This document shows, piece by piece, positions 18,476 through 50,272 of a stretch of 57,769 nucleotides of DNA. The notes beneath the pieces are model-generated. The model saw only the letters and a list, made by a program, of their open reading frames with translations. It had not been told where the DNA came from and made no database searches. Source of the DNA: a virus (Duplodnaviria; Caudoviricetes). How positions within the stretch are numbered: the stretch's first letter is position 1; every line of letters begins with the position of its first letter. The stretch lies in the IMG/VR virus record IMGVR_UViG_3300043410_002285, positions 1 to 57,769 of that record. One strand, given 5' to 3'. Made by a program: the position numbers and the translations under genes.

Positions 18476-21400
18476 TTATTTTAATAATAATTTTACTGAA
18501 TATATTATTTCATATTGATCGTTATCACTTGCGTTTATTATTAAGTTAAAATCATCTGGTGAATTATAACTTGTTCTAAATTCACAATTACCCGTTACCC
18601 CACCAATACTTGTTGTTGATGTGTCATCATGAGTAACTAAAGAATTATTATGAGTTGATCTAAATGTGCCAACTCTATGACCACCGCTTGTGATATTTTG
18701 AATAGCATAATCAATAACTAAACCAGCTATATGAGATGCGTTAAATGTTTTAATTATTGTGCTAGTTGGTGACCCACCTGAAACGTTATAAATATCGGAA
18801 TATAAAGCTTGTTTTTGCCCAATTGTTATTGCATTAAAAGCAGATAGATATTTAAAATCATCACTTAAAACCTGGAATCTGTTATTAGCGTAATCCCAAA
18901 TAATAAGATTATTTTGACTTGCAACGTTATCAATATCAACACCAATTGTTATATCATTTGTTAATGCCCCACCACCAGTTAAAGGTGCCTGTACATTTAC
19001 ATTAACATATGTACCATTTGTACCCACATTACCGCTTATACCTGAAGTTCCTGAAGATCCAGCGCTACCGCTTGATCCAGAAGTACCCGAAGAACCTGAT
19101 AATGAACTACCACCATAAGTACCACCAGAACCTGATGTACCTGAAGATCCTGATGTACCAGTTGAACCACTGTCACCTGATGTACCTGATGTACCAGTGC
19201 TACTAGAATTACCTGAAGATCCTGATGTACCAGTTGAACCACTGTCACCTGAAGTTCCATTTGAACCTGTTGATCCTGAATCACCAGATGTACCATTTGA
19301 ACCCGTACTACCTGAATCACCTGAAGAACCTGATGTACCACTACTATTACTTTCACCAGCAGAACCTGAAGTACCAGTTGAACCTGAGCTACCTGAAGAA
19401 CCTGAAGTTCCTGAAGATGTTGATTCACCTGAAGAACCTGATGTACCAGTTGATCCCGAATCACCTGAAGTTCCGTTTGAACCAGTAGAACCTGAGTCAC
19501 CTGAAGAACCAGATGTACCAGTTGATCCGCTATCCCCTGAAGTTCCATTTGAACCAGTTGATCCGCTATCACCACTTGAACCTGAAGAACCTGTTGAACC
19601 AGAGTCACCTGATGAACCATCAGAACCATTTGAACCTGAAGTTCCTGAAAAACCAGACTCACCATTTAAGCCACTTAAACCTGAAGAACCTGAAGAACCC
19701 GTACTACCCGCAGAACCTGATTCACCAGATGTACCATTAGAACCTGTTGATCCAGAATCACCACTTGTTCCTGAAGAACCAGTACTACCTGAATCACCTG
19801 AAGAACCGTCTGAACCTGTTGATCCAGACTCACCGCTCATACCTGAAGTACCAAATGAACCATCAGCTCCTGAGGAACCGTCTGAACCTGTTGATCCTGA
19901 TTCCCCTGAAACACCAGATGAACCATAAGATCCATCTTCACCTGATGTACCTGATGTACCTGTTGAACCACTTTCAGCACTTATACCATTTGTACCTGTT
20001 GAACCAGATTCCCCTGAAGTTCCTGATGTACCTGTTGATGAAGAATCACCTGATGTACCATTAGAACCAGTTGAGCCAGAGTCACCTGATGTACCATTAG
20101 AACCAGTTGAGCCAGAGTCACCTGAAGAACCTGATGTACCCGTACTACCTGAGTCACCACTTGTTCCCGAAGAACCCGTACTACCTGAATCACCTGAAGA
20201 ACCATTAGAACCAGATGAACCGCTTTCGCCTGATGTACCGTCAGAACCTGTAGAACCAGACTCTCCGCTCATACCTGAAGTACCATAAGACCCATCCTCA
20301 CCAGAAGTACCAGATGAACCAGTTGAACCACTTTCACCAGAAACACCGCTTGTACCATAAGAACCATCAGCTCCTGAAGTACCATCAGAACCAGTTGATC
20401 CCGATTCACCTGAAATACCAGAAGTTCCGTTTGAACCATTATCACCTGAAGTACCAGATGTACCTGTTGAACCACTTTCAGCACTTATACCATTTGTACC
20501 CGCTGAACCTGATTCACCAGATGTACCTGATGTACCTGTTGATGAAGAATCACCTGAAGTACCATTTGAACCAGTACTACCAGACTCTCCGCTTATACCT
20601 GAAGTACCATAAGAACCATCAGCTCCTGAAGAACCGTCAGAACCAGTACTTCCACTTTCGCCACTTATACCTGAAGTTCCGTTAGAACCGTCATAACCAC
20701 TACTACCATCACTACCAGTTGATCCTGATTCACCTGAAATACCCGAAGTACCATTTGAACCATCTGCTCCTGAAGAACCGTCAGACCCTGTTGATCCAGA
20801 TTGTCCGCTTACACCAGAAGTTCCATTAGAACCGTTATTACCTGAAGTACCGTTTGTTCCAGAAGAACCTGAAGCTCCGCTTTCACCATTTAAACCACTT
20901 ATACCTGAAGAACCTGAAGAACCAGTTGATCCTGAAGAACCACTTTCTCCTGATTCACCATTTGTACCAAAAGAACCATTTTCACCACTTGTACCTGAAG
21001 AACCAGTAGACCCTGATTCAGCTGAAATACCACTTGTACCAAATGATCCATCATTACCCGATGTACCATCAGAACCAGTACTTCCACTTTCGCCAGAAAC
21101 ACCTGAAGTTCCGTAAGAACCATCTGCTCCTGAAGAGCCATCAGAACCTGTAGATCCGCTCTCACCAGATTGCCCAGAAGTACCGAATGATCCATCATTA
21201 CCACTTGATCCATCGCTTCCTGTTGAACCAGATTCTCCGCTCACACCTGATGTACCAAATGATCCGTTATTACCTGATGTACCATCAGATCCTGTACTAC
21301 CAGATTCCCCTGAAATACCAGAAGTACCTTCAGTACCATCTTCACCCGAAGTTCCTGATGTACCTGTACTACCCGATGCTGCTGACCTACCAGAAGTACC

Positions 21401-24400
21401 TTCAGTACCATCTTCACCCGAAGTTCCTGATGTACCAGTTGAACCAGATTCGCCACTTATACCTGATGTACCATAAGAACCATCTGCACCACTTGATCCG
21501 TCACTACCTGTAGAACCAGATTCACCTGATTGTCCAGAAGTTCCGTTAGAACCATTATTACCTGAAGTACCATTAGATCCTGAAGATCCAGAAGCACCAC
21601 TTTCACCATTTAAACCACTTATACCTGAAGAACCTGAAGAACCTGTACTACCAGATGAACCGCTTTCGCCTGATTGTCCAGAAGTACCAAATGATCCATC
21701 ATTACCCGATGTACCGTCAGATCCTGTACTACCTGACTCACCTGAAACGCCTGAAGTCCCATAAGAACCATCATTACCAGATGTTCCATCGCTACCAGTT
21801 GATCCAGATTCACCACTTATTCCTGAGGTTCCATAAGAACCGTCTGCTCCTGAACTACCATCTGAACCTGTCGAACCAGACTCACCACTTAAACCAGATG
21901 TACCGAACGATCCATCATTACCAGATGTACCATCACTACCTGTGCTACCAGATTCACCTGATTGTCCAGAAGTTCCAAATGACCCATCATTACCAGATGT
22001 ACCATCACTACCTGTGCTACCACTTTCTCCTGATACACCACTTGTACCAGCCGAACCGTCTGCACCTGAAGAACCATCTGAACCCGTTGATCCAGATTCA
22101 CCTGAAATACCAGAGGTTCCAAAAGATCCATCTGCTCCTGAAGAACCATCTGAACCCGTTGATCCAGATTCACCTGAAATACCAGAAGTTCCATAAGAAC
22201 CGTCATCACCTGATGTACCACTTGTACCCGTAGAACCTGAATCCCCTGAAATACCAGAAGTTCCGTTTGAACCATTATCACCTGAAGTCCCATCTGAACC
22301 TGTTGAACCAGATTCTCCCGAAGCACCACTCACACCCCAAGAACCTTCAAAACCTGATGTACCTGAAGTACCATCAGAACCGCTTTCGCCTGAAATACCA
22401 CTTGTACCAAATGAACCGTCTAAACCACTACTACCGTTAGAACCATCAGAACCACTTTCACCTGAAATACCTGAAGTTCCAAATGAACCGTCAGCACCTG
22501 AAGTTCCATCCGAACCAGTACTACCTGATTCACCTGAAATACCACTTGTACCAAATGAACCATCAGCACCAGATGTACCATCTGAACCAGTACTACCTGA
22601 TTCACCAGAAACGCCAGAAGTACCAAATGAACCATCATTACCTGAAGTACCATCTGAACCTGTGCTACCACTTTCCCCTGAAACACCTGAAGTTCCGTTA
22701 TTACCACTAATACCGTCTGAACCATTTGAACCTGAAGTTCCTGAAAAACCAGATTCACCATTTAATCCATTTAAACCAGAAGATCCCGAAGAACCTGTTG
22801 AACCAGCGGAACCGCTTTCACCACTTATACCTGAAGTCCCTGTTGAACCGTTATCACCTGATGTACCATCAGAACCAGTTGATCCACTCTCACCTGAAAC
22901 ACCTGAAGAACCATAGGATCCATCTTCACCTGAAGTACCAGATGTACCCGTGCTACCAGATTCACCACTTATACCTGAAGTTCCAAATAAACCGTCTTCA
23001 CCTGAAGTACCATCTGAACCAGTACTACCTGATTCACCTGAAATACCTGATGTACCATAAGACCCATCAGCACCTGAAGTTCCATCCGAACCAGTTGATC
23101 CCGATTCTCCACTTATACCTGAGGTTCCATAAGACCCATCTTCACCAGAAGTACCTGATGTACCTGTGCTACCACTATCACCACTTATACCTGAAGTTCC
23201 GTTTGAACCATTATCACCAGATGTACCGTTAGAACCTGTTGAACCAGATTCACCTGAAATACCACTTGTACCTGTGGAACCATCTTCCCCTGAAATACCA
23301 CTTGTACCTGTGGAACCTGATTCACCTGATTCACCATTTGTACCAGTACTACCAGAGTCACCACTTGTTCCCGAAGAACCCGTACTACCTGAATCACCTG
23401 AAGAACCATTAGAACCTGATTCCCCGCTTAAACCGCTTGTACCATCAACACCACTCACACCATCAATACCATTTGAACCAGATGTTCCTGAAACACCACT
23501 TGTACCATTAGAACCATCATTACCTGAACTTCCATCAGAACCTGTGCTACCACTTTCTCCACTTATACCTGATGTACCATAAGAACCGTCAGCACCAGAT
23601 GTACCATCTGAACCTGTACTACCTGATTCACCTGAAATACCACTTGTACCAAATGAACCATCAGCACCAGATGTACCATCTGAACCAGTACTACCTGATT
23701 CACCTGAGATACCTGAAGAACCATAAGATCCGTCTTCACCTGATGTACCAGATGTACCAGTACTACCAGACTCTCCGCTTATACCTGAAGTTCCGCTTGA
23801 ACCATTATCACCTGAAGTCCCATCTGAACCAGTTGATCCACTCTCACCACTAGCACCGCTTACACCCCAAGAACCTTCAAAACCCGATGTACCTGAAGTA
23901 CCATCTGAACCAGATTCCCCGCTCATACCTGAAGTTCCGTATGAACCATCAGCTCCTGAAGTACCATCTGAACCAGTTGATCCAGAATCACCACTTATAC
24001 CATTTGTACCTGATGAGCCATTTAAACCACTTGTCCCATCAATACCACTTATTCCATCTAAACCATTAACACCACTTGTACCTGAATTACCAGAAGTTCC
24101 TGAAGAACCATCTTCACCTGAAGAACCTGATTCCCCGCTTATACCTGAGGTTCCATATGAACCATCATTACCACTCATACCAGATGTACCATCTGAACCA
24201 CTTTCACCACTTATACCTGAGGTTCCAGAAGTACCATCATACCCTGAAATACCATCTAAACCATTTATACCTGAAGTACCAGATTCACCAGAAGTTCCTG
24301 AAGAACCATCTTCAGCACTTGATCCTGAAGACCCACTTAAACCACTTGTCCCTGAATTACCTGAAGTACCATTTGTACCATCGTAACCAGAAATACCATC

Positions 24401-26200
24401 CAATCCATTGATACCTGACGTACCATCAGCACCAGTTGTACCAGATGAACCATCAAAACCAGAAATACCATCAAGACCATTTATACCTGACGTACCCGAA
24501 TTACCACTAGTTCCTGAAGAACCTTCCTCACCACTTGTACCATTTGTACCTGTTAAACCTGAAGTTCCAGAATTACCTGAGGTTCCTGAAGAACCATCAA
24601 ATCCACTTATACCATCTAATCCGTTAATACCAGAAGTACCATCGGCACCAGTTGTACCAGATGAACCATCAAAACCAGAAATACCATCTAATCCGTTAAT
24701 ACCAGAGGTACCAGAATTACCTGAAGTACCATCTGAACCCGACTCACCAGAACTACCTGACTCACCAGTTAAACCTGATGTACCAGAATTACCACTTGTA
24801 CCAGATGAACCATCAAAACCAGAAATACCATCAAGACCATTTACACCTGAAGTACCATCAGCACCAGTTGTTCCTGAAGAACCATCAAAACCAGAAATAC
24901 CATCAAGACCATTTACACCGCTCGTACCCGAATTACCCGAAGTACCGTCAGATCCTGATTCACCACTTGAACCCGACTCACCTGTTAAACCTGAAGTTCC
25001 AGAATTACCTGAGGTTCCTGAAGAACCATCGTATCCTGAAACACCGTCAAGACCATTTATACCACTTGTACCATCAGCACCAGTTGTACCAGATGAACCA
25101 TCGAAACCAGAGATACCGTCCAATCCATTAACACCTGAAGTACCTGAATTACCCGAAGTACCATCTGAACCCGACTCACCACTTGAACCCGACTCACCTG
25201 TTAAACCTGAAGTTCCAGAATTACCTGAAGTACCTGAAGAACCGTCAAAACCCGAAATACCATCTAAACCATTTATACCTGACGTACCATCAGCACCAGT
25301 TGTTCCTGAAGATCCGTCAAAACCTGAAATCCCATCAAGGCCGTTTATACCAGATGTTCCTGATTCACCAGAAGTTCCTGAAGAACCAGTTTCACCAGAA
25401 GTTCCTGATTCACCTGTTAAACCTGAAGTTCCTGAGTTACCAGAAGTTCCTGAAGAACCATCGTATCCTGAAATTCCGTCAAGACCATTAACACCTGAAG
25501 TACCATCAGCACCAGTTGTTCCTGAAGAACCATCAAATCCACTTATTCCATCTAATCCGTTTATACCTGAAGTACCCGAATTACCGCTCGTTCCTGAAGA
25601 ACCATCTTCACCACTTGTACCAGTTAACCCAGTAAGACCTGAAGTACCAGAATTACCAGAAGTTCCTGAAGAACCATCGTAACCTGAAACGCCATCTAAA
25701 CCATTAATACCACTTGTACCTGACGAACCGTCAAGACCTGATGTACCATTATAGCCAGAAATACCGTCAAGACCGTCAAGACCTGATGTACCAGAATTAC
25801 CTGAGGTTCCTGATGTACCGTCTGAGCCACTTAACCCTGAATAACCAGAAGTCCCTGAGGTACCAGAGGTACCAATAAATAAAGGTGAATAGGAATATTC
25901 ACCAGTAGTAGCATCAAAAGACACAAAATAACTTGGCGTGTTATTTTGGGTCATACCAGTAACAAATAATTGATTTAATGTGTATATACCCTTAAGATCT
26001 TGGGTATTTTCCCACTGATTAGTGGTGTTGTTATATACTAGAACATCCCCATCATTGGGGCCTGCGATTACAACGTCAGATAAATCTGTTATACCCAGAT
26101 TTTCTATTACGTCTTTTATATTCTGGAAGTTAGCATCTAATTCCGCATAGGACAATGCCCTTCCTAGATTGTCTCTAAGATAAATTGTTACTGTTGCCAT
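18476..26200 (-). CDS. Giant (2574 aa) acidic Gly-X-Y (collagen-like) fibre protein
   Basis: N-terminal LR..LGRALSYAELDANF and DLSDVVI..P.DGDVLVYN..T.QWEN, as in phage fibre N-termini; about 2290 aa of GES/GSD/GTS/GLD triplets; globular C-terminal domain. Confidence 0.82.
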   Translation of the reverse strand: MATVTIYLRDNLGRALSYAELDANFQNIKDVIENLGITDLSDVVIAGPNDGDVLVYNNTTNQWENTQDLKGIYTLNQLFVTGMTQNNTPSYFVSFDATTGEYSYSPLFIGTSGTSGTSGYSGLSGSDGTSGTSGNSGTSGLDGLDGISGYNGTSGLDGSSGTSGINGLDGVSGYDGSSGTSGNSGTSGLTGLTGTSGEDGSSGTSGNSGTSGINGLDGISGFDGSSGTTGADGTSGVNGLDGISGYDGSSGTSGNSGTSGLTGESGTSGETGSSGTSGESGTSGINGLDGISGFDGSSGTTGADGTSGINGLDGISGFDGSSGTSGNSGTSGLTGESGSSGESGSDGTSGNSGTSGVNGLDGISGFDGSSGTTGADGTSGINGLDGVSGYDGSSGTSGNSGTSGLTGESGSSGESGSDGTSGNSGTSGVNGLDGISGFDGSSGTTGADGTSGVNGLDGISGFDGSSGTSGNSGTSGLTGESGSSGESGSDGTSGNSGTSGINGLDGISGFDGSSGTTGADGTSGINGLDGISGFDGSSGTSGNSGTSGLTGTNGTSGEEGSSGTSGNSGTSGINGLDGISGFDGSSGTTGADGTSGINGLDGISGYDGTNGTSGNSGTSGLSGSSGSSAEDGSSGTSGESGTSGINGLDGISGYDGTSGTSGISGESGSDGTSGMSGNDGSYGTSGISGESGSSGEDGSSGTSGNSGTSGVNGLDGISGIDGTSGLNGSSGTNGISGDSGSTGSDGTSGADGSYGTSGMSGESGSDGTSGTSGFEGSWGVSGASGESGSTGSDGTSGDNGSSGTSGISGESGSTGTSGTSGEDGSYGSSGISGESGSTGSDGTSGADGSFGTSGISGESGSTGSDGTSGADGSYGTSGISGESGSTGSDGSSGNDGSNGTSGVSGTSGSNGIDGVSGVDGTSGLSGESGSNGSSGDSGSTGSSGTSGDSGSTGTNGESGESGSTGTSGISGEDGSTGTSGISGESGSTGSNGTSGDNGSNGTSGISGDSGSTGTSGTSGEDGSYGTSGISGESGSTGSDGTSGADGSYGTSGISGESGSTGSDGTSGEDGLFGTSGISGESGSTGTSGTSGEDGSYGSSGVSGESGSTGSDGTSGDNGSTGTSGISGESGSAGSTGSSGSSGLNGLNGESGFSGTSGSNGSDGISGNNGTSGVSGESGSTGSDGTSGNDGSFGTSGVSGESGSTGSDGTSGADGSFGTSGISGESGSTGSDGTSGADGSFGTSGISGESGSDGSNGSSGLDGSFGTSGISGESGSDGTSGTSGFEGSWGVSGASGESGSTGSDGTSGDNGSNGTSGISGDSGSTGTSGTSGDDGSYGTSGISGESGSTGSDGSSGADGSFGTSGISGESGSTGSDGSSGADGSAGTSGVSGESGSTGSDGTSGNDGSFGTSGQSGESGSTGSDGTSGNDGSFGTSGLSGESGSTGSDGSSGADGSYGTSGISGESGSTGSDGTSGNDGSYGTSGVSGESGSTGSDGTSGNDGSFGTSGQSGESGSSGSTGSSGSSGISGLNGESGASGSSGSNGTSGNNGSNGTSGQSGESGSTGSDGSSGADGSYGTSGISGESGSTGTSGTSGEDGTEGTSGRSAASGSTGTSGTSGEDGTEGTSGISGESGSTGSDGTSGNNGSFGTSGVSGESGSTGSDGSSGNDGSFGTSGQSGESGSTGSDGSSGADGSYGTSGVSGESGSTGSDGTSGNDGSFGTSGISAESGSTGSSGTSGENGSFGTNGESGESGSSGSTGSSGSSGISGLNGESGASGSSGTNGTSGNNGSNGTSGVSGQSGSTGSDGSSGADGSNGTSGISGESGSTGSDGSSGYDGSNGTSGISGESGSTGSDGSSGADGSYGTSGISGESGSTGSNGTSGDSSSTGTSGTSGESGSAGTNGISAESGSTGTSGTSGDNGSNGTSGISGESGSTGSDGTSGADGSYGTSGVSGESGSTGSSGTSGEDGSYGTSGMSGESGSTGSDGTSGESGSSGSNGSSGDSGSTGSSGTSGDSGSTGTSGSSGDSGSTGSNGTSGDSGSTGSNGTSGDSSSTGTSGTSGESGSTGTNGISAESGSTGTSGTSGEDGSYGSSGVSGESGSTGSDGSSGADGSFGTSGMSGESGSTGSDGSSGDSGSTGSSGTSGDSGSTGSNGTSGESGSAGSTGSSGSSGLSGLNGESGFSGTSGSNGSDGSSGDSGSTGSSGSSGDSGSTGSNGTSGDSGSTGTSGSSGDSGSTGSNGTSGDSGSTGTSGSSGESTSSGTSGSSGSSGSTGTSGSAGESNSSGTSGSSGDSGSTGSNGTSGDSGSTGSNGTSGDSGSTGTSGSSGNSSSTGTSGTSGDSGSTGTSGSSGTSGSGGTYGGSSLSGSSGTSGSSGSAGSSGTSGISGNVGTNGTYVNVNVQAPLTGGGALTNDITIGVDIDNVASQNNLIIWDYANNRFQVLSDDFKYLSAFNAITIGQKQALYSDIYNVSGGSPTSTIIKTFNASHIAGLVIDYAIQNITSGGHRVGTFRSTHNNSLVTHDDTSTTSIGGVTGNCEFRTSYNSPDDFNLIINASDNDQYEIIYSVKLLLK
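19012..25873 (-). repeat. Coding Gly-X-Y repeat of fibre 2
   Basis: Near-uninterrupted Gly every third residue, D/E-rich; modules GINGLDGISGFDGSSGT and GESGSTGSDGTSGADGSYGTSGIS. Boundaries approximate. Confidence 0.95.
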
Positions 26201-26287: not shown

Positions 26288-28753
26288 TTATTCAGTTATA
26301 ACCACATTAATCTTTTCAGCTTTTGAATTGTGTGTTAAATTTATTTTACCTGATTTAGGCATTTGTTTTTTTAACATCTCATCTGAGATAGGATCTTCAA
26401 TATACTTTTGAATGGTTCTTTGTATTTCTCTAGCACCATATAATTTATTAAAACCTTTCTCAAGAATAAAATCTTTAATTTTTTTATCAATTTTAAGATT
26501 AAAACCAACTTCTTTCAAATGATTTTCCAAATCTTTTAATTGTAGTTCAATAATTTTTAAAACATCTTCTTGTGTTAAATAATTAAAATACACAATTTCA
26601 TCTAAACGGTTAATAAATTCTGGTTTAAATGTTTTCTTAAGATTTTTCTCAATAATACTTTTTGAGTTTACTAATGCGTCAGCCTCTGAATCATTAAAAC
26701 CAATCTTTGTACCAAAATCTTGGACTTCTTTCAAACCAATGTTCGATGTCATGATAATAATTGTGTTTTTAAAATTGATTTTTCTACCGTTAGCATCGGT
26801 TAGATAACCTTCATCCAATAATTGCAACATTACGTTAAAAATGTCTGGATGGGCTTTTTCAATCTCATCAAATAAAACCAATGAATAAGGTTTATTCTTA
26901 ACTTTCTCGGTTAATTGACCACCTTCGTTATAACCAACGTATCCTGGGGGCGCTCCAATCAATTTACTGATGTTAAATTTCTCTGAATACTCAGACATAT
27001 CAACACGGATGATAGCGTCTTTAGAACCAAAAACTTTTTGAGCTAAAGATTTTGCTAATTCAGTTTTACCGACACCAGTAGGTCCAATAAATAAGAACGA
27101 ACCAATTGGTTTTGATTGTTTTCTAATACCAGTTCTATTTCTTTTGATAGATGAAACAACCTTCTCAATAGCATCGGATTGACCGATAACGCAATTTGAA
27201 AGTTCTTTATCCATTGATAATAATCTTGTTATTTCATTTTCAGAAACTTTACTCACGGGTATTCCAGTCATCATTGAAACAACTTCAGCAATCATGTCAT
27301 CAGTAACAATATTTCGTTTATCGTTAATCGATAATTTCCATGAAGAAGTTTCTTTTTCTAATTCTGTTAAAATTTTTTTCTCTTGATCACGAAGCTGTGC
27401 TGCTTGTTCAAAATTTTGGGTTTTAACAACTTGTTGTTTTTGATCTTTAATATCTTTCAACTTAGCCTCAAGATCTTTAATTTTTTGTGGTGCTTTAACA
27501 GCAACCTGAGTTCTTGACCCAGCCTCATCCATAATATCAATAGCTTTGTCAGGAAACTCTCTATTTGTGATATATCTGTCAGCCAAAGCAATGATTTCAT
27601 CAATAGCTTCTTCAGTATAAGTTACTTTATGGAAATCTTCATATTTTTCTTTTATGTTCATTAAGATTTCTTTTGTTTCACTTAAAATCGGTGGGTTAAC
27701 CATAACTTTTTGGAATCTTCGATCCAAAGCACCATCTTTTTCAATATGCTCACGATATTCATCTAACGTTGTTGCACCAATACATTGAAGTTCACCGCGA
27801 GCCAAAGCTGGTTTAAATACGTTTGCGGCATCTAAAGAACCAGATGAATTACCAGCACCAACGATTGTATGTAACTCATCAATAAATAAAATCACATTTG
27901 GGCTATCTTTAGCCTCATCAACAATCGCTTTAATTCTTTCTTCAAACTGACCACGATATTTTGTTCCAGCAACTAAAGATGTCATATCTAATGTAACAAC
28001 ACGCTTATTCATTAAAGGTCTTGGGCAGTCACCATTAGCAATTTTAATAGCCAAACTTTCAGCAATTGCTGTCTTACCAACACCTGGATCACCAATTAGT
28101 ATTGGGTTATTCTTTTTTCTTCTAGTCAAAATTTGACAAACCCTCTCAACCTCAGAAGTACGGCCAATAACTGGATCTAATTTACCTTCTTGTGCTAAAA
28201 TAGTTAAATCACGACCAAAATTGTCTAATGTTGGTGTTTTTGATTTAATGTTTTTATTTGCTTCGTTTAAAGGTTTTCTTTCTCTTGGTATTTCATCATC
28301 ATTTGAAAAAACACTAGATTGTGGTGTTGATAGTTGTTTAATTTTTTTGGCAATGAAAGTTTTTGTTAAACCATATTCTTTAAAAAGTTTAACAATTGCG
28401 TTATCCTTTTCCATTGAAATTAGAAAAAACAATTCAACCGTGATATAATCAGTTGGTTTTTTTCTAACAATACACTCCTTTATTATTTCCTGTAAATCAG
28501 ATTCAAACGGTAGGATATTATCTTGTTTGGTGCTTGATGAATCCGACAACCTTTTGTTAATGTCATTTAAATCATTTACCATCACATCAAAATCCAATAC
28601 TTTGTTTTTAACAACCTCGTATATCATATTTTCGGTTGTTAAAATACCGAATATTACGTGTTGCAGTCTAAGCATTGAATCATTATACTTAATTGCCGCA
28701 GATTGGCCCCTTGTAAAAGCGGCTCTTAGTTCATTTGTCATTCTTTCTTTCAT
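26288..28753 (-). CDS. clpC: ATP-dependent Clp protease ATP-binding subunit (ClpC-like)
   Basis: Clp N-domain; NBD1 GDPGVGKT / ILFIDELH; UVR coiled coil ([11 protein letters not shown]); NBD2 GPTGVGKT / LFDEIEKAH; IGF ClpP-docking loop (KIGF). Confidence 0.95.
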
Positions 28754-45849: not shown

Positions 45850-47748
45850 TTAGTTTAGTTTTATTGTTTTATTTGTTTTAATTTGGTTTTCTGTTTTTAA
45901 CATACCATAGTATGTACCAGGTATTACATTAGTTAAATCGACAGGGTAAACGTATTTACCTTTGTACATTTTACCACTGAAAACTGTGTGTACTAATTTA
46001 CCATTAGCATCAAAGAATCCAACTAATATTTCACCATCTTCTGGTACACTAAAACTAACATACGCAAAACCTTCTGTCGGGTTAGGTGCCACAATTATTT
46101 CACAATCTTTTGTTGTATTAGCACCACCGTTAATCTTGAATATTTTAACAACACCGTTTGTTGGTGTTATTCTTAGGTCAGTTGCATTTGCATCACCAGC
46201 ATATTTTCTAATAACATATAAAGGACTATGGGTCCAAGTTGTTTGTGCACTTAAAGCTGTAAATTGTAAATTTAAAACAGCATCACCGTTATTAGCCAAA
46301 TATTCATTTTTACTCATATCTGCACCAGCCCATTCAACAACACCATCATTTGGGTTTAAGAATGACATCCAGTTCATGAATTTTTGTTCTGTTTGAATAC
46401 CTTTAAACTCTAATAAATTTTTATCATAAGCTAAAGCTAATTGAATAGAACCAACTTGATCACCAGCGGTTAAAACTTTCATCGGAACATTTACTAATGT
46501 ACCCTCAGTAACTTCAATTTGTGGTAAATTAATTTCAATTGTTGCTGTGGGAAAATCATACTCAACCGTTTCATCGATGATATATTTAGGTGTTTTGCTA
46601 GGATTTAAGATTTCAATAGGAATTGTACGAGCCATATGGAAACCAGTACCGTTAGCATCACCACCACCTAATACATAGAATGTTACAGAGTCTGGTTGGC
46701 CCGCAATAATATCAAATGTTAAGTTAGTTACACCAGCAATTGATGATGTATAGTTAGTTGAAGAGCCATTAATTGTTGCGTATTGAGACGCTGAAAAGAA
46801 TCTAACATCTTTAACACTATTAGGCCATACAGTAAATCTACCCGCTAAACGACCATAAATTGCAGATACGTCAGCAATTGTAATACCATTTGATCCGTTA
46901 ACATCTGATGAGTAGAAATCAAAACCAGTCGGTGTCTCCTCGCCAATAACAAATTTATTTACTTTTTGAGCATCAGCCACAGATACTGTAGCACCAACAG
47001 CCATCGTATCACCCTTCACATATAAATGAGCATCCCAATAAGTTGTATCCAATATTTCATCAAAAGCAAAATAACCAGTAACATCAGTGGTGTCAATCTT
47101 AACTTGAGTCCAAGCACCTGTTGATGTTTTAGGTCTTTTTTCTAAAGCAACTGTAATGTTTTTAGAGCCAGTACCAGTTACGTTTGTGAATCTACCGTGG
47201 TATTTAAGTCTGTTTAATTTGAACTCACCACCATAACTATGTAAAGACAAACCAGTATCCATACCAGCTATTGTAGCCGCATATGATGGGAATGTCATTG
47301 TACCAACAATTTTCAAACTATCAATACTAGTTAAAGCTTGGAATGCCGTTGCATTCTCATGGAAGAATTTTATTTGAAAAGCGGCACCGTTTGCATAAGT
47401 AAACGAGTTGTTGGTACCTGTATACGCTAAGGTAATTGTAATATTACCATTAACTGAGTCAGCTACATATTGCATGTATTGATCAGTTGAACTGTATACC
47501 AAACTAACAATTGGTTTAGCACCACCAAAGGCTACTTTATCGTAGAATACACGAAATTGTAAACCAGCAATTTTAGTCGTTGTTGAATTGTCATAGTAAA
47601 GGTTAGCTAATGTGAAACCTTGTGATTGGGGACCAACATTGTAAGATGAATCAACGACAATCCAATTACCCGTTGAAGGTCCTGTTGTTTGTGCATAGCC
47701 CATTACAGCCAAAAACGCCAGCACTAGCGTTAATAAAAATTTTTTCAT
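45850..47748 (-). CDS. Secreted cohesin/dockerin protein with T9SS type A C-terminal sorting domain
   Basis: Signal peptide; cohesin-like IAGLQFRVFYD and VNVPM..VGSIQLALAYDKNLLEF; dockerin-like DVNGSNGITIADV; CTD VAPNPT...FFDANGKLV...GTYY...KTIK. Confidence 0.85.
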   Translation of the reverse strand: MKKFLLTLVLAFLAVMGYAQTTGPSTGNWIVVDSSYNVGPQSQGFTLANLYYDNSTTTKIAGLQFRVFYDKVAFGGAKPIVSLVYSSTDQYMQYVADSVNGNITITLAYTGTNNSFTYANGAAFQIKFFHENATAFQALTSIDSLKIVGTMTFPSYAATIAGMDTGLSLHSYGGEFKLNRLKYHGRFTNVTGTGSKNITVALEKRPKTSTGAWTQVKIDTTDVTGYFAFDEILDTTYWDAHLYVKGDTMAVGATVSVADAQKVNKFVIGEETPTGFDFYSSDVNGSNGITIADVSAIYGRLAGRFTVWPNSVKDVRFFSASQYATINGSSTNYTSSIAGVTNLTFDIIAGQPDSVTFYVLGGGDANGTGFHMARTIPIEILNPSKTPKYIIDETVEYDFPTATIEINLPQIEVTEGTLVNVPMKVLTAGDQVGSIQLALAYDKNLLEFKGIQTEQKFMNWMSFLNPNDGVVEWAGADMSKNEYLANNGDAVLNLQFTALSAQTTWTHSPLYVIRKYAGDANATDLRITPTNGVVKIFKINGGANTTKDCEIIVAPNPTEGFAYVSFSVPEDGEILVGFFDANGKLVHTVFSGKMYKGKYVYPVDLTNVIPGTYYGMLKTENQIKTNKTIKLN

Positions 47749-48303: not shown

Positions 48304-48337
48304 TGTTATAGAGATAAAACTAAAACTACGAAAAACG

Positions 48338-48371
48338 AAGCCCTGAACCAACAAGTTCAGGGTTTTTTTTT
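48338..48371 (+). terminator. Intrinsic terminator (attenuator) between leader and tRNA array
   Basis: AAGCCCTGAAC-CAACAA-GTTCAGGGTTTTTTTTT. CTGAACC (48343-48349) can alternatively pair with GGTTCAG (48280-48286) in the leader ORF. Confidence 0.85.
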
Positions 48372-48403: not shown

Positions 48404-48478
48404 AGCGTAGTTGGCCAATTGGTAGGCCGCCTCATTTGGGATGAGGACATAGTGCAGGTTCGAGTCCCGTCTACGCTA
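48404..48478 (+). tRNA. tRNA-Pro(TGG) #1, atypical acceptor
   Basis: AGCGTAG/CTACGCT acceptor, GGCC/GGCC D-stem, CCTCA-TTTGGGA-TGAGG anticodon arm, TTCGAGT T-loop. Confidence 0.8.
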
Positions 48479-48484
48479 CTATTT

Positions 48485-48560
48485 CAGGATATGGGGGAGT
48501 CAGGTCGTCCCTACCTGCCTTGGACGCAGGGGATCGCTGGTTCGAATCCAGCTATCCTGA
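48485..48560 (+). tRNA. tRNA-Pro(TGG) #2
   Basis: CAGGATA/TATCCTG-A, CCTGC-CTTGGAC-GCAGG, GCTGG-TTCGAAT-CCAGC. Confidence 0.9.
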
Positions 48561-48566
48561 CACAAT

Positions 48567-48640
48567 GTCTTCGTAGCTCAGTAGGTTAGAGCACCTCACT
48601 TTTAATGAGGGAGTCACAGGTTCGAGTCCTGTCGGGGACA
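48567..48640 (+). tRNA. tRNA-Lys(TTT)
   Basis: GTCTTCG/CGGGGAC, CCTCA-CTTTTAA-TGAGG, ACAGG-TTCGAGT-CCTGT. Confidence 0.95.
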
Positions 48641-48645
48641 CAAAC

Positions 48646-48715
48646 GTATAAGTTGATCGTGGTGGTCGGTTGGTCTGCAAAACCAATGGTGTTGGTTCGA
48701 TTCCAACCTTATACT
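48646..48715 (+). tRNA. tRNA-Cys(GCA)
   Basis: GTATAAG/CTTATAC with U73, TTGGT-CTGCAAA-ACCAA, short D-loop. Confidence 0.88.
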
Positions 48716-48724
48716 CAAATATAC

Positions 48725-48795
48725 ACGGATATGGTGAAATGGTATCATAATGGTCTCCAAAACCACAGTTCAGGGTTCGAATCCTTGTATCCGTG
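48725..48795 (+). tRNA. tRNA-Trp(CCA)
   Basis: ACGGATA/TATCCGT with G73, TGGT-CTCCAAA-ACCA, CAGGG-TTCGAAT-CCTTG. Confidence 0.92.
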
Positions 48796-48802
48796 CTAAA
48801 AT

Positions 48803-48882
48803 GCCCTTGTAGGCGAATGGTATAGCCGCTGGTCTTAGAAACCAGAGCGAAAGCATTGCAGGTTCGAGTCCTGCCAGGGGTA
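48803..48882 (+). tRNA. tRNA-Leu(TAG)
   Basis: GCCCTTG/CAGGGGT-A, CTGGT-CTTAGAA-ACCAG, long variable arm GCGAAAGC. Confidence 0.93.
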
Positions 48883-48887
48883 CACAT

Positions 48888-48960
48888 GCACCTTTAGCTC
48901 AGTTGGTAGAGCGCTGCCCTTACATGGCAGATGTCATAGGTTCGAGTCCTATAGGGTGTA
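48888..48960 (+). tRNA. tRNA-Val(TAC)
   Basis: GCACCTT/AGGGTGT-A, CTGCC-CTTACAT-GGCAG. Confidence 0.95.
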
Positions 48961-48962
48961 CA

Positions 48963-49101
48963 AAGGTTGATCGGGGAATGGTCACATCAATAGTTCGAGA
49001 GTGAATACTGACTGGTGTGATCGGAGTTTACAGGTATTCACCAGAGTAATGCTGATCGTAAAAGAGGATGTCCACTGAACCATCTTCCTCTTCCCTAACT
49101 T
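48963..49101 (+). ncRNA. Unidentified structured RNA (~140 nt) with kissing-loop pseudoknot inside the tRNA array
   Basis: Closing stem AGGTTG..GGGAA / TTCCC-TAACTT; hairpin GGTCACATCA/TGGTGTGATC; hairpin AGTTTAC/GTAATGCT; loop-loop GTGAATAC/GTATTCAC; hairpin GAGGATG/CATCTTC. Confidence 0.7.
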
Positions 49102-49183
49102 GCCAGTATCGCATAGCGGCAATTGCGGCTGACTGTAAATCAGCTCCCTTACGGGTTCGGTGGTTCGAGTCCACCTGCTGGCA
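49102..49183 (+). tRNA. tRNA-Tyr(GTA)
   Basis: GCCAGTA/TGCTGGC-A, GCTGA-CTGTAAA-TCAGC, long variable arm. Confidence 0.95.
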
Positions 49184-49195
49184 CTATTTATTAAT

Positions 49196-49657
49196 ATGAG
49201 AAAATTAATATTAATGATTGTAATGGTTTTATCTACAACGATTTGTAAATCACAAATTGTGATAGATAAAGCTGGGGATGGTTGGGATCTGAGAGCTGAT
49301 AGTGCTTTAGCTATTATCAAACAAACGGATACAACCGCTTATAAACTTGTGTTACGAGTTTGTAATAAAATAACTTTTTGGTCTGGGAACTATTCAACAA
49401 ACGAGGGTTCTAAAGATACAAAAGGGAGTATAATAATATCATCGACAGATGCTAGGGCAAAATCCCTAAACAATCTCGCTGCTGTTATTGTACATGAATC
49501 TTTACACCTTTATCTTAGATATAGGGGTGTCCAAGAATCACCAAAAGAAGAAATACTTTGTTATTCATATGAGTATGACTTTTTAAGGAAAATACCAAAC
49601 GTTGAGCAGTATCTGTTAGATCATTGTTTAAGACAGATAACTTTTCGACAAAATTAA
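49196..49657 (+). CDS. Secreted HExxH metallopeptidase-like protein inside the tRNA array
   Basis: Signal peptide MRKLILMIVMVLSTTICKS; VIVHESLH...EE; own TATTTAT motif at 49185. Confidence 0.75.
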   Translation: MRKLILMIVMVLSTTICKSQIVIDKAGDGWDLRADSALAIIKQTDTTAYKLVLRVCNKITFWSGNYSTNEGSKDTKGSIIISSTDARAKSLNNLAAVIVHESLHLYLRYRGVQESPKEEILCYSYEYDFLRKIPNVEQYLLDHCLRQITFRQN

Positions 49658-49658
49658 T

Positions 49659-49731
49659 GGGGTCATAGCTCAATTGGCTGAGCGCTTCCCTTGCAAGGAA
49701 GAGGATGTGGGTTCGAGTCCCATTGGCTCCA
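49659..49731 (+). tRNA. tRNA-Ala(TGC)
   Basis: GGGGTCA/TGGCTCC-A with G3:U70; CTTCC-CTTGCAA-GGAAG. Confidence 0.95.
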
Positions 49732-49737
49732 CTATAT

Positions 49738-49811
49738 TGTCCTGTAGAATAATGGCAGTTCACCCGACTTTGACTCGGGTCGTCCAGGTTCGAGTCCTGG
49801 CGGGACAACCA
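49738..49811 (+). tRNA. tRNA-Gln(TTG)
   Basis: TGTCCTG/CGGGACA (U1-A72), CCCGA-CTTTGAC-TCGGG, encoded CCA. Confidence 0.93.
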
Positions 49812-49814
49812 AAT

Positions 49815-49889
49815 GGTGAGATAGCTCAGAGGAAGAGCATTCGGCTCATATCCGAAAGGTCGGGATTTCGAAATTCCCTCTCACTACCA
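49815..49889 (+). tRNA. tRNA(CAT): elongator Met or Ile2
   Basis: GGTGAGA/TCTCACT-ACCA, TTCGG-CTCATAT-CCGAA; lacks initiator hallmarks. Confidence 0.88.
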
Positions 49890-49894
49890 TATAT

Positions 49895-49969
49895 GGTTTC
49901 TGTAGCTCAGCTGGTTAGAGTACTTGATTGTGATTCAAGAGGTCGTGGGTTCGAGCCCCACCAGTCACC
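49895..49969 (+). tRNA. tRNA-His(GTG)
   Basis: G-1:C73, CTTGA-TTGTGAT-TCAAG; two acceptor-stem mismatches. Confidence 0.88.
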
Positions 49970-49976
49970 CAAAAAT

Positions 49977-50050
49977 ACCTTCATAGCTCAATGGATGAGA
50001 GCGTTTCGCTACGAACGAAAAGGTTGGGAGTTCGAGTCTCTCTGAAGGTA
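49977..50050 (+). tRNA. tRNA-Arg(ACG)
   Basis: ACCTTCA/TGAAGGT-A, TTTCG-CTACGAA-CGAAA. Confidence 0.94.
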
Positions 50051-50110
50051 CAATAAACCTGTTTTTGCTACGATAAACAAACCATGTTTATTATGCAAAA
50101 TTTAATTTAT

Positions 50111-50184
50111 CGTCCTGTAGCTCAATTGGTTAGAGCGTCTGCCTGATACGCAGAAGGTTAGTGGTTCGAGTCCACTTGGGACGA
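50111..50184 (+). tRNA. tRNA-Ile(GAT)
   Basis: CGTCCTG/TGGGACG-A, TCTGC-CTGATAC-GCAGA. Confidence 0.94.
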
Positions 50185-50272
50185 CTATATGGTATAGATA
50201 ATGTCTATATTAAAATATTGATTATCATTGTTTTATCTCATTTTTTATGGTATATATAAAAAAATATATGTT

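What the first reader, a model, noticed from the sequence alone, without database searches (positions are those of the whole stretch)
48963..49101. Unassigned ~140-nt pseudoknotted RNA filling the tRNA-Val/tRNA-Tyr gap
Seen: a GC-richer spacer with a closing helix and three internal hairpins. The loop of hairpin 1 (GTGAATAC, 49001-49008) is perfectly complementary over 8 bp to the loop of hairpin 2 (GTATTCAC, 49034-49041). A T-loop-like GTTCGAGA sits in the first loop. It abuts both tRNAs, so tRNA processing would release it as a discrete RNA. It is not a tRNA, and I cannot match it to an RNA family by eye. Inference: a phage ncRNA co-regulated with the tRNAs (decoy, ribozyme or protein sponge).
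Basis: partly seen in the sequence, partly recalled or inferred. Interest (0 to 1): 0.72.

Follow-up and report, generated by a model that had tools for sequence, protein, structure and literature searches.

The report
New pseudoknotted RNA in phage tRNA arrays
The 140-base gap between two tRNA genes holds a real, conserved, folded RNA gene of a family not found in Rfam, which sits in the tRNA arrays of many freshwater jumbo phages and whose function is still unknown.

Summary
The finding holds up and grows. Window 48962-49101 matches no Rfam family, tRNA or tmRNA. Its single-sequence fold is no better than shuffles, and an 8-bp inverted repeat alone arises in 8.8% of shuffles. Comparison with relatives settles it. 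Pattern scans and a covariance model gave 113 distinct relatives (110-144 nt) from IMG/VR contigs, always on the tRNA strand of a tRNA array.

Covariation supports a three-way junction: P0 3-5/133-135, P1 7-13/91-97 and P3 100-106/126-132. P1 carries hairpin P2/P2a, whose loop pairs with a downstream strand. About 97% of cells are paired, against 32-56% in slid controls.

P3 shows a 19-nt loop with two invariant blocks. The middle domain is swappable, with a type B paralogue and an 80-nt minimal form.

Five of five 245-321 kb phage records hold one copy each. Metatranscriptome contigs bridge Val-RNA-Tyr. T4 rnaC/rnaD are positional analogues, not homologues. My best reading is a processed, trans-acting RNA.

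The parts
48888..48961 (+). tRNA-Val(UAC), upstream neighbour. No encoded CCA is visible (read).
   Evidence: ARAGORN; Rfam tRNA 70.1 bits
48962..49101 (+). The whole 140-nt RNA element (type A, class 1 of the family).
   Evidence: CM R1 154.2 bits, E 6e-35; 126 of 140 columns invariant among 10 close relatives, as high as the tRNAs
48964..48966 (+). P0 5' strand (AGG). It pairs with 49094-49096 (CCU) and clamps the two ends.
   Evidence: 3-135 paired in 110/113, 4-134 in 112/113 (GC 109, AU 3, one compensatory type), 5-133 in 113/113. Weakly tested.
48968..48974 (+). P1 5' strand. It pairs with 49052-49058.
   Evidence: 100% of cells paired; 4 of 7 pairs change on both sides in A2 (CG/UA/UG at 11-93; GC/AU/GU at 12-92)
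48975..48979 (+). J1/2, GGAAU, near-invariant in type A.
   Evidence: invariant and near-invariant columns G14, G15, A16, A17, T18
48980..48988 (+). P2 5' strand. It pairs with 49014-49022.
   Evidence: 9 of 9 pairs change on both sides; 95.5% and 96.3% paired
48992..48994 (+). P2a 5' strand. It pairs with 49011-49013.
   Evidence: 3 of 3 pairs change on both sides; 83% and 82% paired (the weaker helix; the class 2 rows are poorly aligned here)
49001..49008 (+). Pseudoknot 5' arm (GUGAAUAC) in the apical loop of P2/P2a.
49023..49033 (+). J2/PK joiner with invariant GGAGUU.
   Evidence: G63, A64, G65, T66, T67 invariant in 60 sequences
49034..49041 (+). Pseudoknot 3' arm (GUAUUCAC), in a single-stranded joiner.
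   Evidence: 98.7% and 95.4% paired; 6 of 8 and 7 of 8 pairs change on both sides
49042..49051 (+). JPK/1 joiner with conserved AGUAAYG.
49052..49058 (+). P1 3' strand.
49061..49067 (+). P3 5' strand. It pairs with 49087-49093.
   Evidence: pairs 103-129, 104-128 and 106-126 paired in 113/113, pair 105-127 in 112/113, with GC, CG, AU and UA types. The three bottom A-U pairs never covary.
49068..49086 (+). P3 apical loop, 19 nt: NN-GUCCAC-NNRA-CCAUCUU. The two blocks are invariant and the centre is hypervariable.
   Evidence: positions 109-114, 119-122 and 125 identical in 113/113; 115-117 vary over 12 tetranucleotide types
49087..49093 (+). P3 3' strand.
49094..49096 (+). P0 3' strand (CCU).
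49102..49184 (+). tRNA-Tyr(GUA), downstream neighbour. Its 5' end would define the 3' end of the element.
   Evidence: tRNA-Tyr is the downstream neighbour in 31 of 63 distinct contexts.

Best explanation
Window 48962-49101 is a gene for a small structured RNA of a family that Rfam 15 does not hold.

How it is made. It is transcribed as part of the tRNA polycistron. It would be freed when RNase P cuts at the 5' end of the downstream tRNA and the host 3'-end machinery trims the upstream tRNA. This is how T4 species 1 and 2 RNAs (rnaC, rnaD) are said to be made (recalled, not read here).

How it folds. The released RNA, about 140 nt, forms a three-way junction.
- A short helix, P0, clamps the two ends.
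- Arm P1 carries a swappable middle domain. In this window that domain is hairpin P2/P2a, whose apical loop forms an 8-bp H-type pseudoknot with a downstream joiner, set among invariant junction nucleotides.
- Arm P3 presents a 19-nt loop with two invariant blocks, GUCCAC and CCAUCUU.

How I think it works. The stems covary freely while the P3 loop and the junction nucleotides do not change. The P0/P1/P3 module persists even when the middle domain is replaced or nearly deleted. I therefore read it as a trans-acting RNA. Its P3 loop would be the recognition surface for a partner, a protein or RNA of the translation or tRNA pathway in the phage or its Bacteroidota host. The middle domain would be an accessory fold.

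Shown: the family, the strand, the structure, the context, and presence in RNA libraries.
Inferred: excision as a discrete stable RNA, action in trans, and the loop as the binding surface.
For: 1. Not a known RNA. Rfam gives nothing in the spacer at E<=10, and there is no tRNA or tmRNA. blastn against 50,697 GenBank phage records gave only 19-nt chance matches at E=6.

2. Constraint. 126 of 140 columns are invariant and the length is exactly 140 nt in all 11 close loci that keep the Val-Tyr gap. Neighbouring ORFs show 46-79% invariant columns and intergenic DNA 60-76%.

3. A large family. CM R1 gave 99 matches in 96 sources and 78 in 74 further loci, which collapse to 113 distinct full-length sequences.

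4. Structure. On A2, 97.1% of cells are paired, 25 of 37 pairs change on both sides, and 0 of 500 shuffles reach this; slid controls give 32-53%. A4 was ascertained without the P3 loop or the pseudoknot. It gives 96.6%, 23 of 37, and slid controls of 39-56%. G-U pairs are frequent (UG 47 of 60 at 7-97), which fixes the RNA strand as the tRNA strand.

5. It behaves like a gene in the array. Every flanking tRNA seen is on the same strand, 58 of 58 on each side. A tRNA lies within 6 nt downstream in 51 of 63 contexts and within 7 nt upstream in 36 of 63. Neighbours differ: Val-X-Tyr, Asn-X-Tyr, Lys-X-Val, Tyr-X-Trp, Trp-X-Tyr.

6. One copy was found in each of 5 of 5 records of 245-321 kb; 3 of them are at least 90% complete.

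7. Constant module. The P3 loop blocks are identical in 113 of 113, including the 58 sequences not selected on the loop. The type B paralogue and the 80-nt form in L211 keep P1 and P3 but not the pseudoknot domain.

8. RNA libraries. A 371-nt contig of run X17 (depth 111) lies on 48882-49184, that is Val, the element and Tyr, with 7 differences. X18 contigs cover 48920-49080 and 48990-49087.
Against: No experiment or read-level data show a discrete 140-nt species, its ends or its stability. The RNA-library evidence is contigs only, and the tool warns that DNA can be present in such libraries.

No partner was found. The complement of the P3 loop is not enriched in the window (5 matches against 4.6 expected). 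It is also not enriched in three Bacteroidota MAGs that hold the element, where matches are fewer than for the reversed-pattern control.

Invariant junction nucleotides around a pseudoknot are also what a ribozyme core or a ligand pocket looks like.

P0 is only 3 bp and has a single compensatory type.

Each alignment is ascertained by a pattern, so the invariance of the block used for retrieval is not independent within that set.
Confidence: 0.45

Rival explanations
1. A self-cleaving ribozyme, or another cis-acting processing element, that helps mature the neighbouring tRNAs. The precedent is the HDV-like theta ribozymes next to phage tRNAs.
For: The element abuts tRNAs: 51 of 63 contexts downstream and 36 of 63 upstream. 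About 45 invariant positions cluster in junctions around a pseudoknot. Theta ribozymes show that phages place ribozymes beside tRNAs (PMC10879173; search listing and abstract only).
Against: No Rfam ribozyme family scores in the spacer at E<=10. The helix order does not fit the HDV nested double pseudoknot: I found no P1.1 partner, and J1/4 is UA (my reading against a recalled consensus). The 80-nt minimal form loses the pseudoknot and its junction but keeps a terminal loop, which is an odd place for a catalytic core. RNA-library contigs run unbroken across the element, which is weak evidence.
Confidence: 0.13
2. A cis-regulatory RNA that controls transcription through the array, such as a riboswitch, an attenuator or a put-like antiterminator. 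P1/P2/PK would be the sensor and P3 the expression platform.
For: The junction-centred conservation looks like a pocket. P3 is flanked by an A-tract and a U-rich tail. In 27 of 63 contexts no tRNA lies just upstream, so the element can head a sub-array.
Against: The P1 3' strand and P3 do not overlap, so no mutually exclusive pairing is evident. The P3 loop is 19 nt and invariant, unlike a terminator, and the terminator scan does not flag it. The sensor domain is replaced or nearly absent in type B and in the minimal form, while P3 is kept.
Confidence: 0.1
3. A decoy that soaks up a host defence or a host enzyme acting on tRNAs. This is a special case of the trans-acting reading, with a defined class of partner.
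For: It sits in a tRNA array and is expressed with the tRNAs. The loop carries two CCA-containing blocks, UCCAC and ACCAU. That phage tRNA arrays counter tRNA-targeting defences is recalled knowledge.
Against: Nothing in the fold copies a cloverleaf, an anticodon arm or a T-arm: ARAGORN and the Rfam tRNA model are silent, and GUUCGAGA occurs in only 20 of 113. No defence partner is identified.
Confidence: 0.1
4. A decayed tRNA pseudogene, a neutral spacer or a short protein-coding ORF.
For: The length is about that of two tRNAs. There is a T-loop-like heptamer. ORFs of 33-112 aa overlap the spacer.
Against: Compensatory covariation occurs in five helices and includes G-U pairs. Conservation equals that of the tRNAs. 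Family lengths of 110-144 nt differ by non-multiples of three. The overlapping ORFs run into the tRNAs.
Confidence: 0.02

Closest known systems
Phage T4 species 1 and species 2 RNAs (rnaC, 139 nt; rnaD, 119 nt)
   Same: These are small non-tRNA RNAs encoded inside a phage tRNA cluster, on the tRNA strand and 1-6 nt from their neighbours. They lie in tandem, as the type B plus type A pairs do here, and are of similar size. Their function is still unknown (recalled).
   Different: There is no homology: model R1 has no match on rnaC or rnaD even at E<=10 with filters off. The T4 RNAs end in tRNA-like T-arm and acceptor or CCA sequences (read), which this family lacks. This family has a pseudoknot domain and a 19-nt invariant loop.
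HDV-like theta ribozymes of gut phages (PMC10879173; listing and abstract seen)
   Same: They are structured, pseudoknotted RNAs placed directly beside phage tRNA genes, in phages some of which carry suppressor tRNAs. Relatives of this window carry a CUA-anticodon tRNA.
   Different: No Rfam HDV-type model hits. The helix order and junctions do not fit the HDV fold. Adjacency here is stronger to the downstream tRNA than to the upstream one. Cleavage is untested.
Bacterial and phage Y RNA-like YrlA (RF02553)
   Same: Some phages encode this ncRNA near tRNAs, and it has a modular design (recalled).
   Different: The only YrlA match, 30.3 bits against a gathering score of 69, lies on tRNA-Leu/Val and not on the element. 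The element has no T-arm or D-arm module. No Ro60/TROVE or RtcB gene was found in 0 of 5 large phage records.
E. coli rtT RNA from the tyrT operon (recalled, not tested)
   Same: It is a small RNA released as a by-product of tRNA-Tyr operon processing. Half of the contexts here (31 of 63) have tRNA-Tyr as neighbour.
   Different: rtT lies downstream of tRNA-Tyr and is a repeat-derived spacer. No Rfam family, rtT included, hits the element.

Membership tests
tRNA (RF00005) / tmRNA | A cloverleaf with a 7-bp acceptor stem next to a T-arm, or a tRNA-like domain plus tag ORF for tmRNA | tested here: not met
   ARAGORN finds nothing in 48962-49101. Rfam tRNA matches stop at 48960 and restart at 49102. 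Covariation gives no T-arm beside P1 or P0.
T4 rnaC/rnaD-type stable RNAs | Encoded within a phage tRNA cluster, on the same strand, abutting tRNAs | tested here: met
T4 rnaC/rnaD-type stable RNAs | Sequence or structure homology to rnaC or rnaD | tested here: not met
   R1 with filters off on the T4 tRNA region: 17 weak matches (9.3 bits or less), none on rnaC or rnaD
T4 rnaC/rnaD-type stable RNAs | Accumulates as a discrete stable RNA after RNase P-dependent processing | not testable with these tools
   Only contigs of RNA libraries were available; they cannot show ends.
HDV-like / theta ribozymes | A nested double pseudoknot (P1, P1.1, P2, P3, P4) with a catalytic C in J4/2 | tested here: not met
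   No HDV-family Rfam match at E<=10. The helix order P0-P1-[P2/PK]-P1'-P3-P0' has no P1.1 or J4/2 equivalent. The consensus used for comparison is recalled.
HDV-like / theta ribozymes | Self-cleavage at the 5' end of P1 | not testable with these tools
   Needs an in-vitro cleavage assay.
Y RNA / YrlA | A Ro-binding terminal stem plus a tRNA-like module, with an Ro60 partner | tested here: not met
   No YrlA match on the element. TROVE found in 0 of 5 phage records. Host Ro60 was not examined.
H-type (hairpin loop to 3' strand) pseudoknot, as a structural class | The apical loop of a hairpin pairs with a downstream single strand, supported by covariation | tested here: met
   40-47/73-80: 6 of 8 and 7 of 8 pairs change on both sides; 98.7% and 95.4% of cells paired

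The most novel reading that the evidence does not exclude
This is the founding member of a new class of phage RNA. It would be a single-copy, near-core gene of a large clade of freshwater Bacteroidota jumbo phages. A constant P0/P1/P3 scaffold with an invariant 19-nt loop engages a specific host or phage factor of the tRNA or translation pathway, or is itself catalytic. The interchangeable middle domain (pseudoknot, type B, minimal) tunes or retargets it. L019 holds other unmatched spacers of about 125-130 nt that look structured. Phage tRNA arrays in general may therefore be nurseries for several such RNA families, which would give the 50-year-old T4 rnaC/rnaD puzzle a broad comparative handle.
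Probability: 0.25. Interest if true: 0.85.

Novelty: new variant of a known kind. Interest (0 to 1): 0.66.

Why it matters
Non-tRNA RNAs inside phage tRNA clusters have been known since T4 species 1 and 2, yet their function is still unexplained. Its secondary structure is resolved by covariation and includes a pseudoknot. Its build is modular, and it has one sharply defined invariant loop. That makes the question testable by loop mutants, pull-downs, and processing and cleavage assays.

It also shows that ARAGORN and Rfam leave real RNA genes unannotated in jumbo-phage tRNA arrays, and that single-sequence folding statistics (z = +0.39) would have dismissed this one.

Caveat on novelty. A 2023 catalogue of 8,495 candidate structured RNAs from IMG/VR (PMC10690425) may already list it. 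One entry, DNAVirus_1423, sometimes overlaps tRNA-Tyr predictions. The supplements are closed, so I could not check.

Tried and rejected
Single-sequence folding gave z +0.39 on the plus strand and +0.86 on the minus strand, so it is uninformative. Of the covariation-supported helices the MFE contains only P2. The supported nested fold scores -19.9 kcal/mol, plus -8.1 for the pseudoknot duplex, against an MFE of -32.7.

I did not count it separately.
- P3a (107-109/120-122): rejected. Positions 107 and 108 vary (UU 35, CA 9) without compensation.
- Alternative P3 register (103-106/123-126): 83-109 of 113 paired and no covariation.
- Candidate tertiary pairs 14-17/131-134 and 63-65/123-125: compatible but invariant, so untestable.
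- Mutual-information scan: nothing beyond the known helices that is not explained by class structure.
- blastn against GenBank phages: nothing.
- T4 rnaC/rnaD: no match.
- Antisense target of the P3 loop: not enriched in the window or in three MAGs.
- Loop triplet against neighbour tRNA identity: no relation. UGAA occurs with both Tyr and Val downstream.
- Ro60 and RtcB: 0 of 5 phage records. CCA-adding or poly(A) polymerase family: 3 of 5, so not universal.
- Terminator scan: P3 is not flagged.
- In runs X17 and X18 the ORF stretch 49238-49639 has no cover while the tRNA and element stretches do. A part without cover proves nothing, so I do not use it as evidence.
- Of 8 pattern matches in genome contigs, 5 were not family members. 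L063 was a false positive.
- Supplements of PMC10690425 are closed, so prior cataloguing cannot be excluded.
- Literature searches that found no description of this RNA.

Full report
WHAT IS THERE. The window is an IMG/VR viral record of 57.8 kb, estimated 19% complete. It carries 14 tRNA genes on the plus strand at 48404-50185. tRNA-Val ends at 48961 and tRNA-Tyr starts at 49102, which leaves exactly 140 nt. The spacer has 0.44 G+C against 0.30-0.38 around it.

Rfam 15 finds only the 14 tRNAs at gathering thresholds. At E<=10 it finds nothing inside the spacer. The weak YrlA and Plastid-ycf2 rows lie on the tRNAs.

IS IT MORE THAN CHANCE? On this sequence alone, no. The MFE of -32.7 kcal/mol has z = +0.39, and 131 of 200 shuffles fold as well. 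The minus strand is no better. A perfect 8-bp inverted repeat appears in 441 of 5000 shuffles. The case rests on relatives.

RELATIVES. The neighbouring 632-aa protein brought in 26 loci. Eleven of them keep Val and Tyr with a gap of exactly 140 nt, giving 7 distinct sequences with the window. Across 10 aligned loci the spacer has 126 of 140 invariant columns and no indel. That is like the tRNAs (62-100%) and above the ORFs (46-79%) and intergenic DNA (60-76%).

Two exact-pattern scans of IMG/VR gave 29 and 106 stretches, with one false positive, L063. Together they yielded 60 distinct variants of 110-141 nt. A third scan was anchored on P1/J1-2 plus GGAGTT and was therefore blind to the pseudoknot and the P3 loop. 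Covariance model R1 matched 99 places in 96 sources and 78 places in 74 new loci. These collapse to 113 distinct full-length sequences.

Distribution elsewhere:
- A scan of 185,579 species-representative prokaryote genomes gave 8 pattern matches. Three are true members, all on contigs of 0.6-2.8 kb binned with Bacteroidota MAGs: Chitinophagales, Sphingobacteriaceae and "Bacteroidetes".
- GenBank phages hold nothing similar to the window's copy.
- Near-identical DNA sits in freshwater and lake metagenomes of several studies.
- The 632-aa neighbour has a T9SS sorting domain, which again points to a Bacteroidota host.

STRUCTURE. Coordinates below count within the spacer; add 48961 for window coordinates. 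Covariation supports:
- P1, 7-13/91-97
- P2, 19-27/53-61
- P2a, 31-33/50-52
- pseudoknot PK, 40-47/73-80
- P3, 100-106/126-132

On A2 (60 sequences) 97.1% of cells pair and 25 of 37 pairs change on both sides. No shuffle of 500 reaches any measure, and sliding the partners by 1-3 columns drops pairing to 32-53%. On the independently ascertained A4 (58 distinct rows) the figures are 96.6%, 23 of 37 and 39-56%.

PK covaries outright, for example GTGTATTT/AAATACAC, GTTTATA/TATAAAC and GCATTCAC/GTGAATGC. A 3-bp P0 (3-5/133-135) pairs in 110-113 of 113 sequences with one compensatory type, G-C to A-U in 3 sequences. I treat P0 as likely, not proven. With P0, the RNA is a three-way junction, and the P3 3' strand runs straight into P0.

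Frequent G-U pairs (U-G 47 of 60 at 7-97; G-U 18 of 60 at 20-60) show that the folded strand is the tRNA strand. GUUCGAGA occurs in only 20 of 113.

CONSTANT AND VARIABLE PARTS. The P3 loop reads NN-GUCCAC-NNRA-CCAUCUU. Positions 109-114, 119-122 and 125 are identical in 113 of 113, including the 58 sequences not chosen on the loop. Positions 115-117 run through 12 tetranucleotide types. In type A the joiners GGAAU, GGAGUU and AGUAAYG are also near-invariant.

The middle domain is not constant:
- Class 2 to 4 variants have other apical hairpins that still pair with the downstream joiner.
- A type B paralogue (112-129 nt, 72-76 bits) replaces the pseudoknot domain with other hairpins. Its loop centre is GCAC, and it sits in tandem just upstream of a type A copy.
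- In L211 P1 encloses only 17 nt, giving an 80-nt form.

So P0/P1/P3 with its loop is the core, and the pseudoknot domain is an accessory.

CONTEXT. There are 63 distinct sequence-plus-neighbour contexts. Every flanking tRNA seen is on the same strand, 58 of 58 on each side. A tRNA starts within 6 nt of the model's 3' end in 51 of 63 (Tyr 31, Val 7, Trp 6, Arg 4, Thr 3). A tRNA ends within 7 nt of its 5' end in 36 of 63. Neighbour pairs differ between lineages, so the element moves as a unit, like a tRNA gene. Five of five phage records of 245-321 kb hold one match each; 3 are at least 90% complete and one has terminal repeats.

EXPRESSION. Six metatranscriptome runs hold part of the array, and four were laid. 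In X17 a 371-nt contig (depth 111) lies on 48882-49184, which is Val, the element and Tyr, with 7 differences. In X18 contigs lie on 48920-49080 and 48990-49087. X15 and X16 have long contigs of a relative across the whole stretch. Contigs show presence in RNA libraries and that the three genes are bridged. They do not show ends or levels, and DNA carry-over cannot be excluded.

WHAT IT IS NOT.
- Not a tRNA or tmRNA.
- Not homologous to T4 rnaC or rnaD. Those sit after tRNA-Arg in the same tandem, abutting fashion but do not match R1, and they end in tRNA-like sequences.
- Not an Rfam ribozyme or riboswitch.
- Not YrlA-like, and the phages lack Ro60 and RtcB.
- Not coding. The overlapping ORFs run into the tRNAs, family lengths differ by non-multiples of three, and substitutions follow base-pairing.

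MECHANISM. The best-supported account is a small RNA gene that is co-transcribed with the tRNAs and cut out by the enzymes that mature them. It folds as a P0-clamped three-way junction. The invariant terminal loop on P3, kept even where the rest is swapped, is most simply a recognition surface for a partner acting in trans. The pseudoknot domain would be an accessory fold.

I put the steps at roughly these odds:
- 0.9 that it is a bona fide structured RNA gene
- 0.6 that it is released as a discrete RNA
- 0.4-0.45 for the trans-acting, loop-as-surface reading

The rivals are a ribozyme or processing element (0.13), a cis-regulator (0.10) and a tRNA-pathway decoy, which is a special case (0.10). 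Their evidence is listed in the rival section. I found no partner: the loop's complement is not enriched in the window or in three MAGs.

NOVELTY. The kind is known: non-tRNA RNAs in phage tRNA clusters (T4) and structured RNAs beside phage tRNAs (theta ribozymes, PMC10879173, of which I saw the listing and abstract). The family and its architecture are not in Rfam 15. Four literature searches turned up no description.

The 2023 IMG/VR catalogue of candidate structured RNAs may contain it. I read passages of PMC10690425, where DNAVirus_1423 is said to overlap tRNA-Tyr predictions in some regions. Its supplements are closed. The "moraphage" paper on aquatic Bacteroidota jumbo phages (PMC12619734, passages read) does not discuss ncRNAs. 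I did not establish whether this window belongs to that lineage.

VERDICT. This is a real and widespread structured RNA family that is new to Rfam, and its function is open.

Noticed in passing
window 3497-18406 (-) and 18476-26200 (-): Two giant ORFs of 4,969 aa and 2,574 aa lie back to back on the minus strand, in a stretch with higher G+C (0.41-0.46) than the rest of the window.
   Followed up: no
L002 4203-4277 (-), also L003, L009, L010, L015; L055 8890-8962 (+): Close relatives carry a tRNA with anticodon CUA, an amber suppressor that ARAGORN labels tRNA-Pyl. In L002, L003, L009, L010 and L015 an extra tRNA-Cys sits next to it, upstream of the same array. The window lacks the suppressor. 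This may point to stop-codon recoding in part of this phage group.
   Followed up: no
L101 4006-4134, L085 2322-2450, L126 797-925, L060 5524-5652, L152 3740-3868, L177 8033-8144: A divergent type B paralogue of the element sits in tandem 2-3 nt upstream of a type A copy. It has the same P1 and P3 but a different middle domain, and its loop centre is GCAC. In the loci read, tRNA-Tyr follows the pair.
   Followed up: partly
L019 3617-3740 and 3816-3944: A more distant phage (neighbour protein 46% identical) has other gaps of 124 nt and 129 nt in its tRNA array. One of them also lies just upstream of tRNA-Tyr. Their ends are complementary (TTGGTGG...CCACCTAA; AAGAGAGAC...GTCTCTCTT). R1 does not match them, so they may be further RNA families.
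   Followed up: partly
window 50052-50110: The 59-nt spacer between tRNA-Arg and tRNA-Ile is kept at that length in relatives, with 44 of 59 invariant columns. It is too short for a tRNA.
   Followed up: no
L006 4365-4467, L014 4378-4480, L044 6613-6715; L002 2225-2345: Some relatives have extra gaps where the window has 4-6 nt: 103 nt between Val and Leu, and 121 nt between Arg and His. These are unexamined inserts.
   Followed up: no
window 49197-49657 (+): A small ORF sits inside the tRNA array between tRNA-Tyr and tRNA-Ala. Its N-terminus is hydrophobic, like a signal peptide (read). It has 79% invariant columns and no PHROG hit for the overlapping 165-aa frame.
   Followed up: partly
window 48337-48366 (+): A strong terminator-like hairpin (12 pairs, then a T-run) lies 37 nt before the first tRNA of the array. 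The array's promoter must therefore lie in a very short interval, or the hairpin is read through.
   Followed up: no
window 45850-47748 (-), 26288-28753 (-): The 632-aa neighbour has a cohesin domain and a T9SS C-terminal sorting domain, a Bacteroidota hallmark. An 821-aa ClpB-like double AAA+ protein is also encoded.
   Followed up: partly
L043 12185-12260 (-): ARAGORN reports a tRNA with a two-base anticodon ('ct', tRNA-???) in a related array.
   Followed up: no
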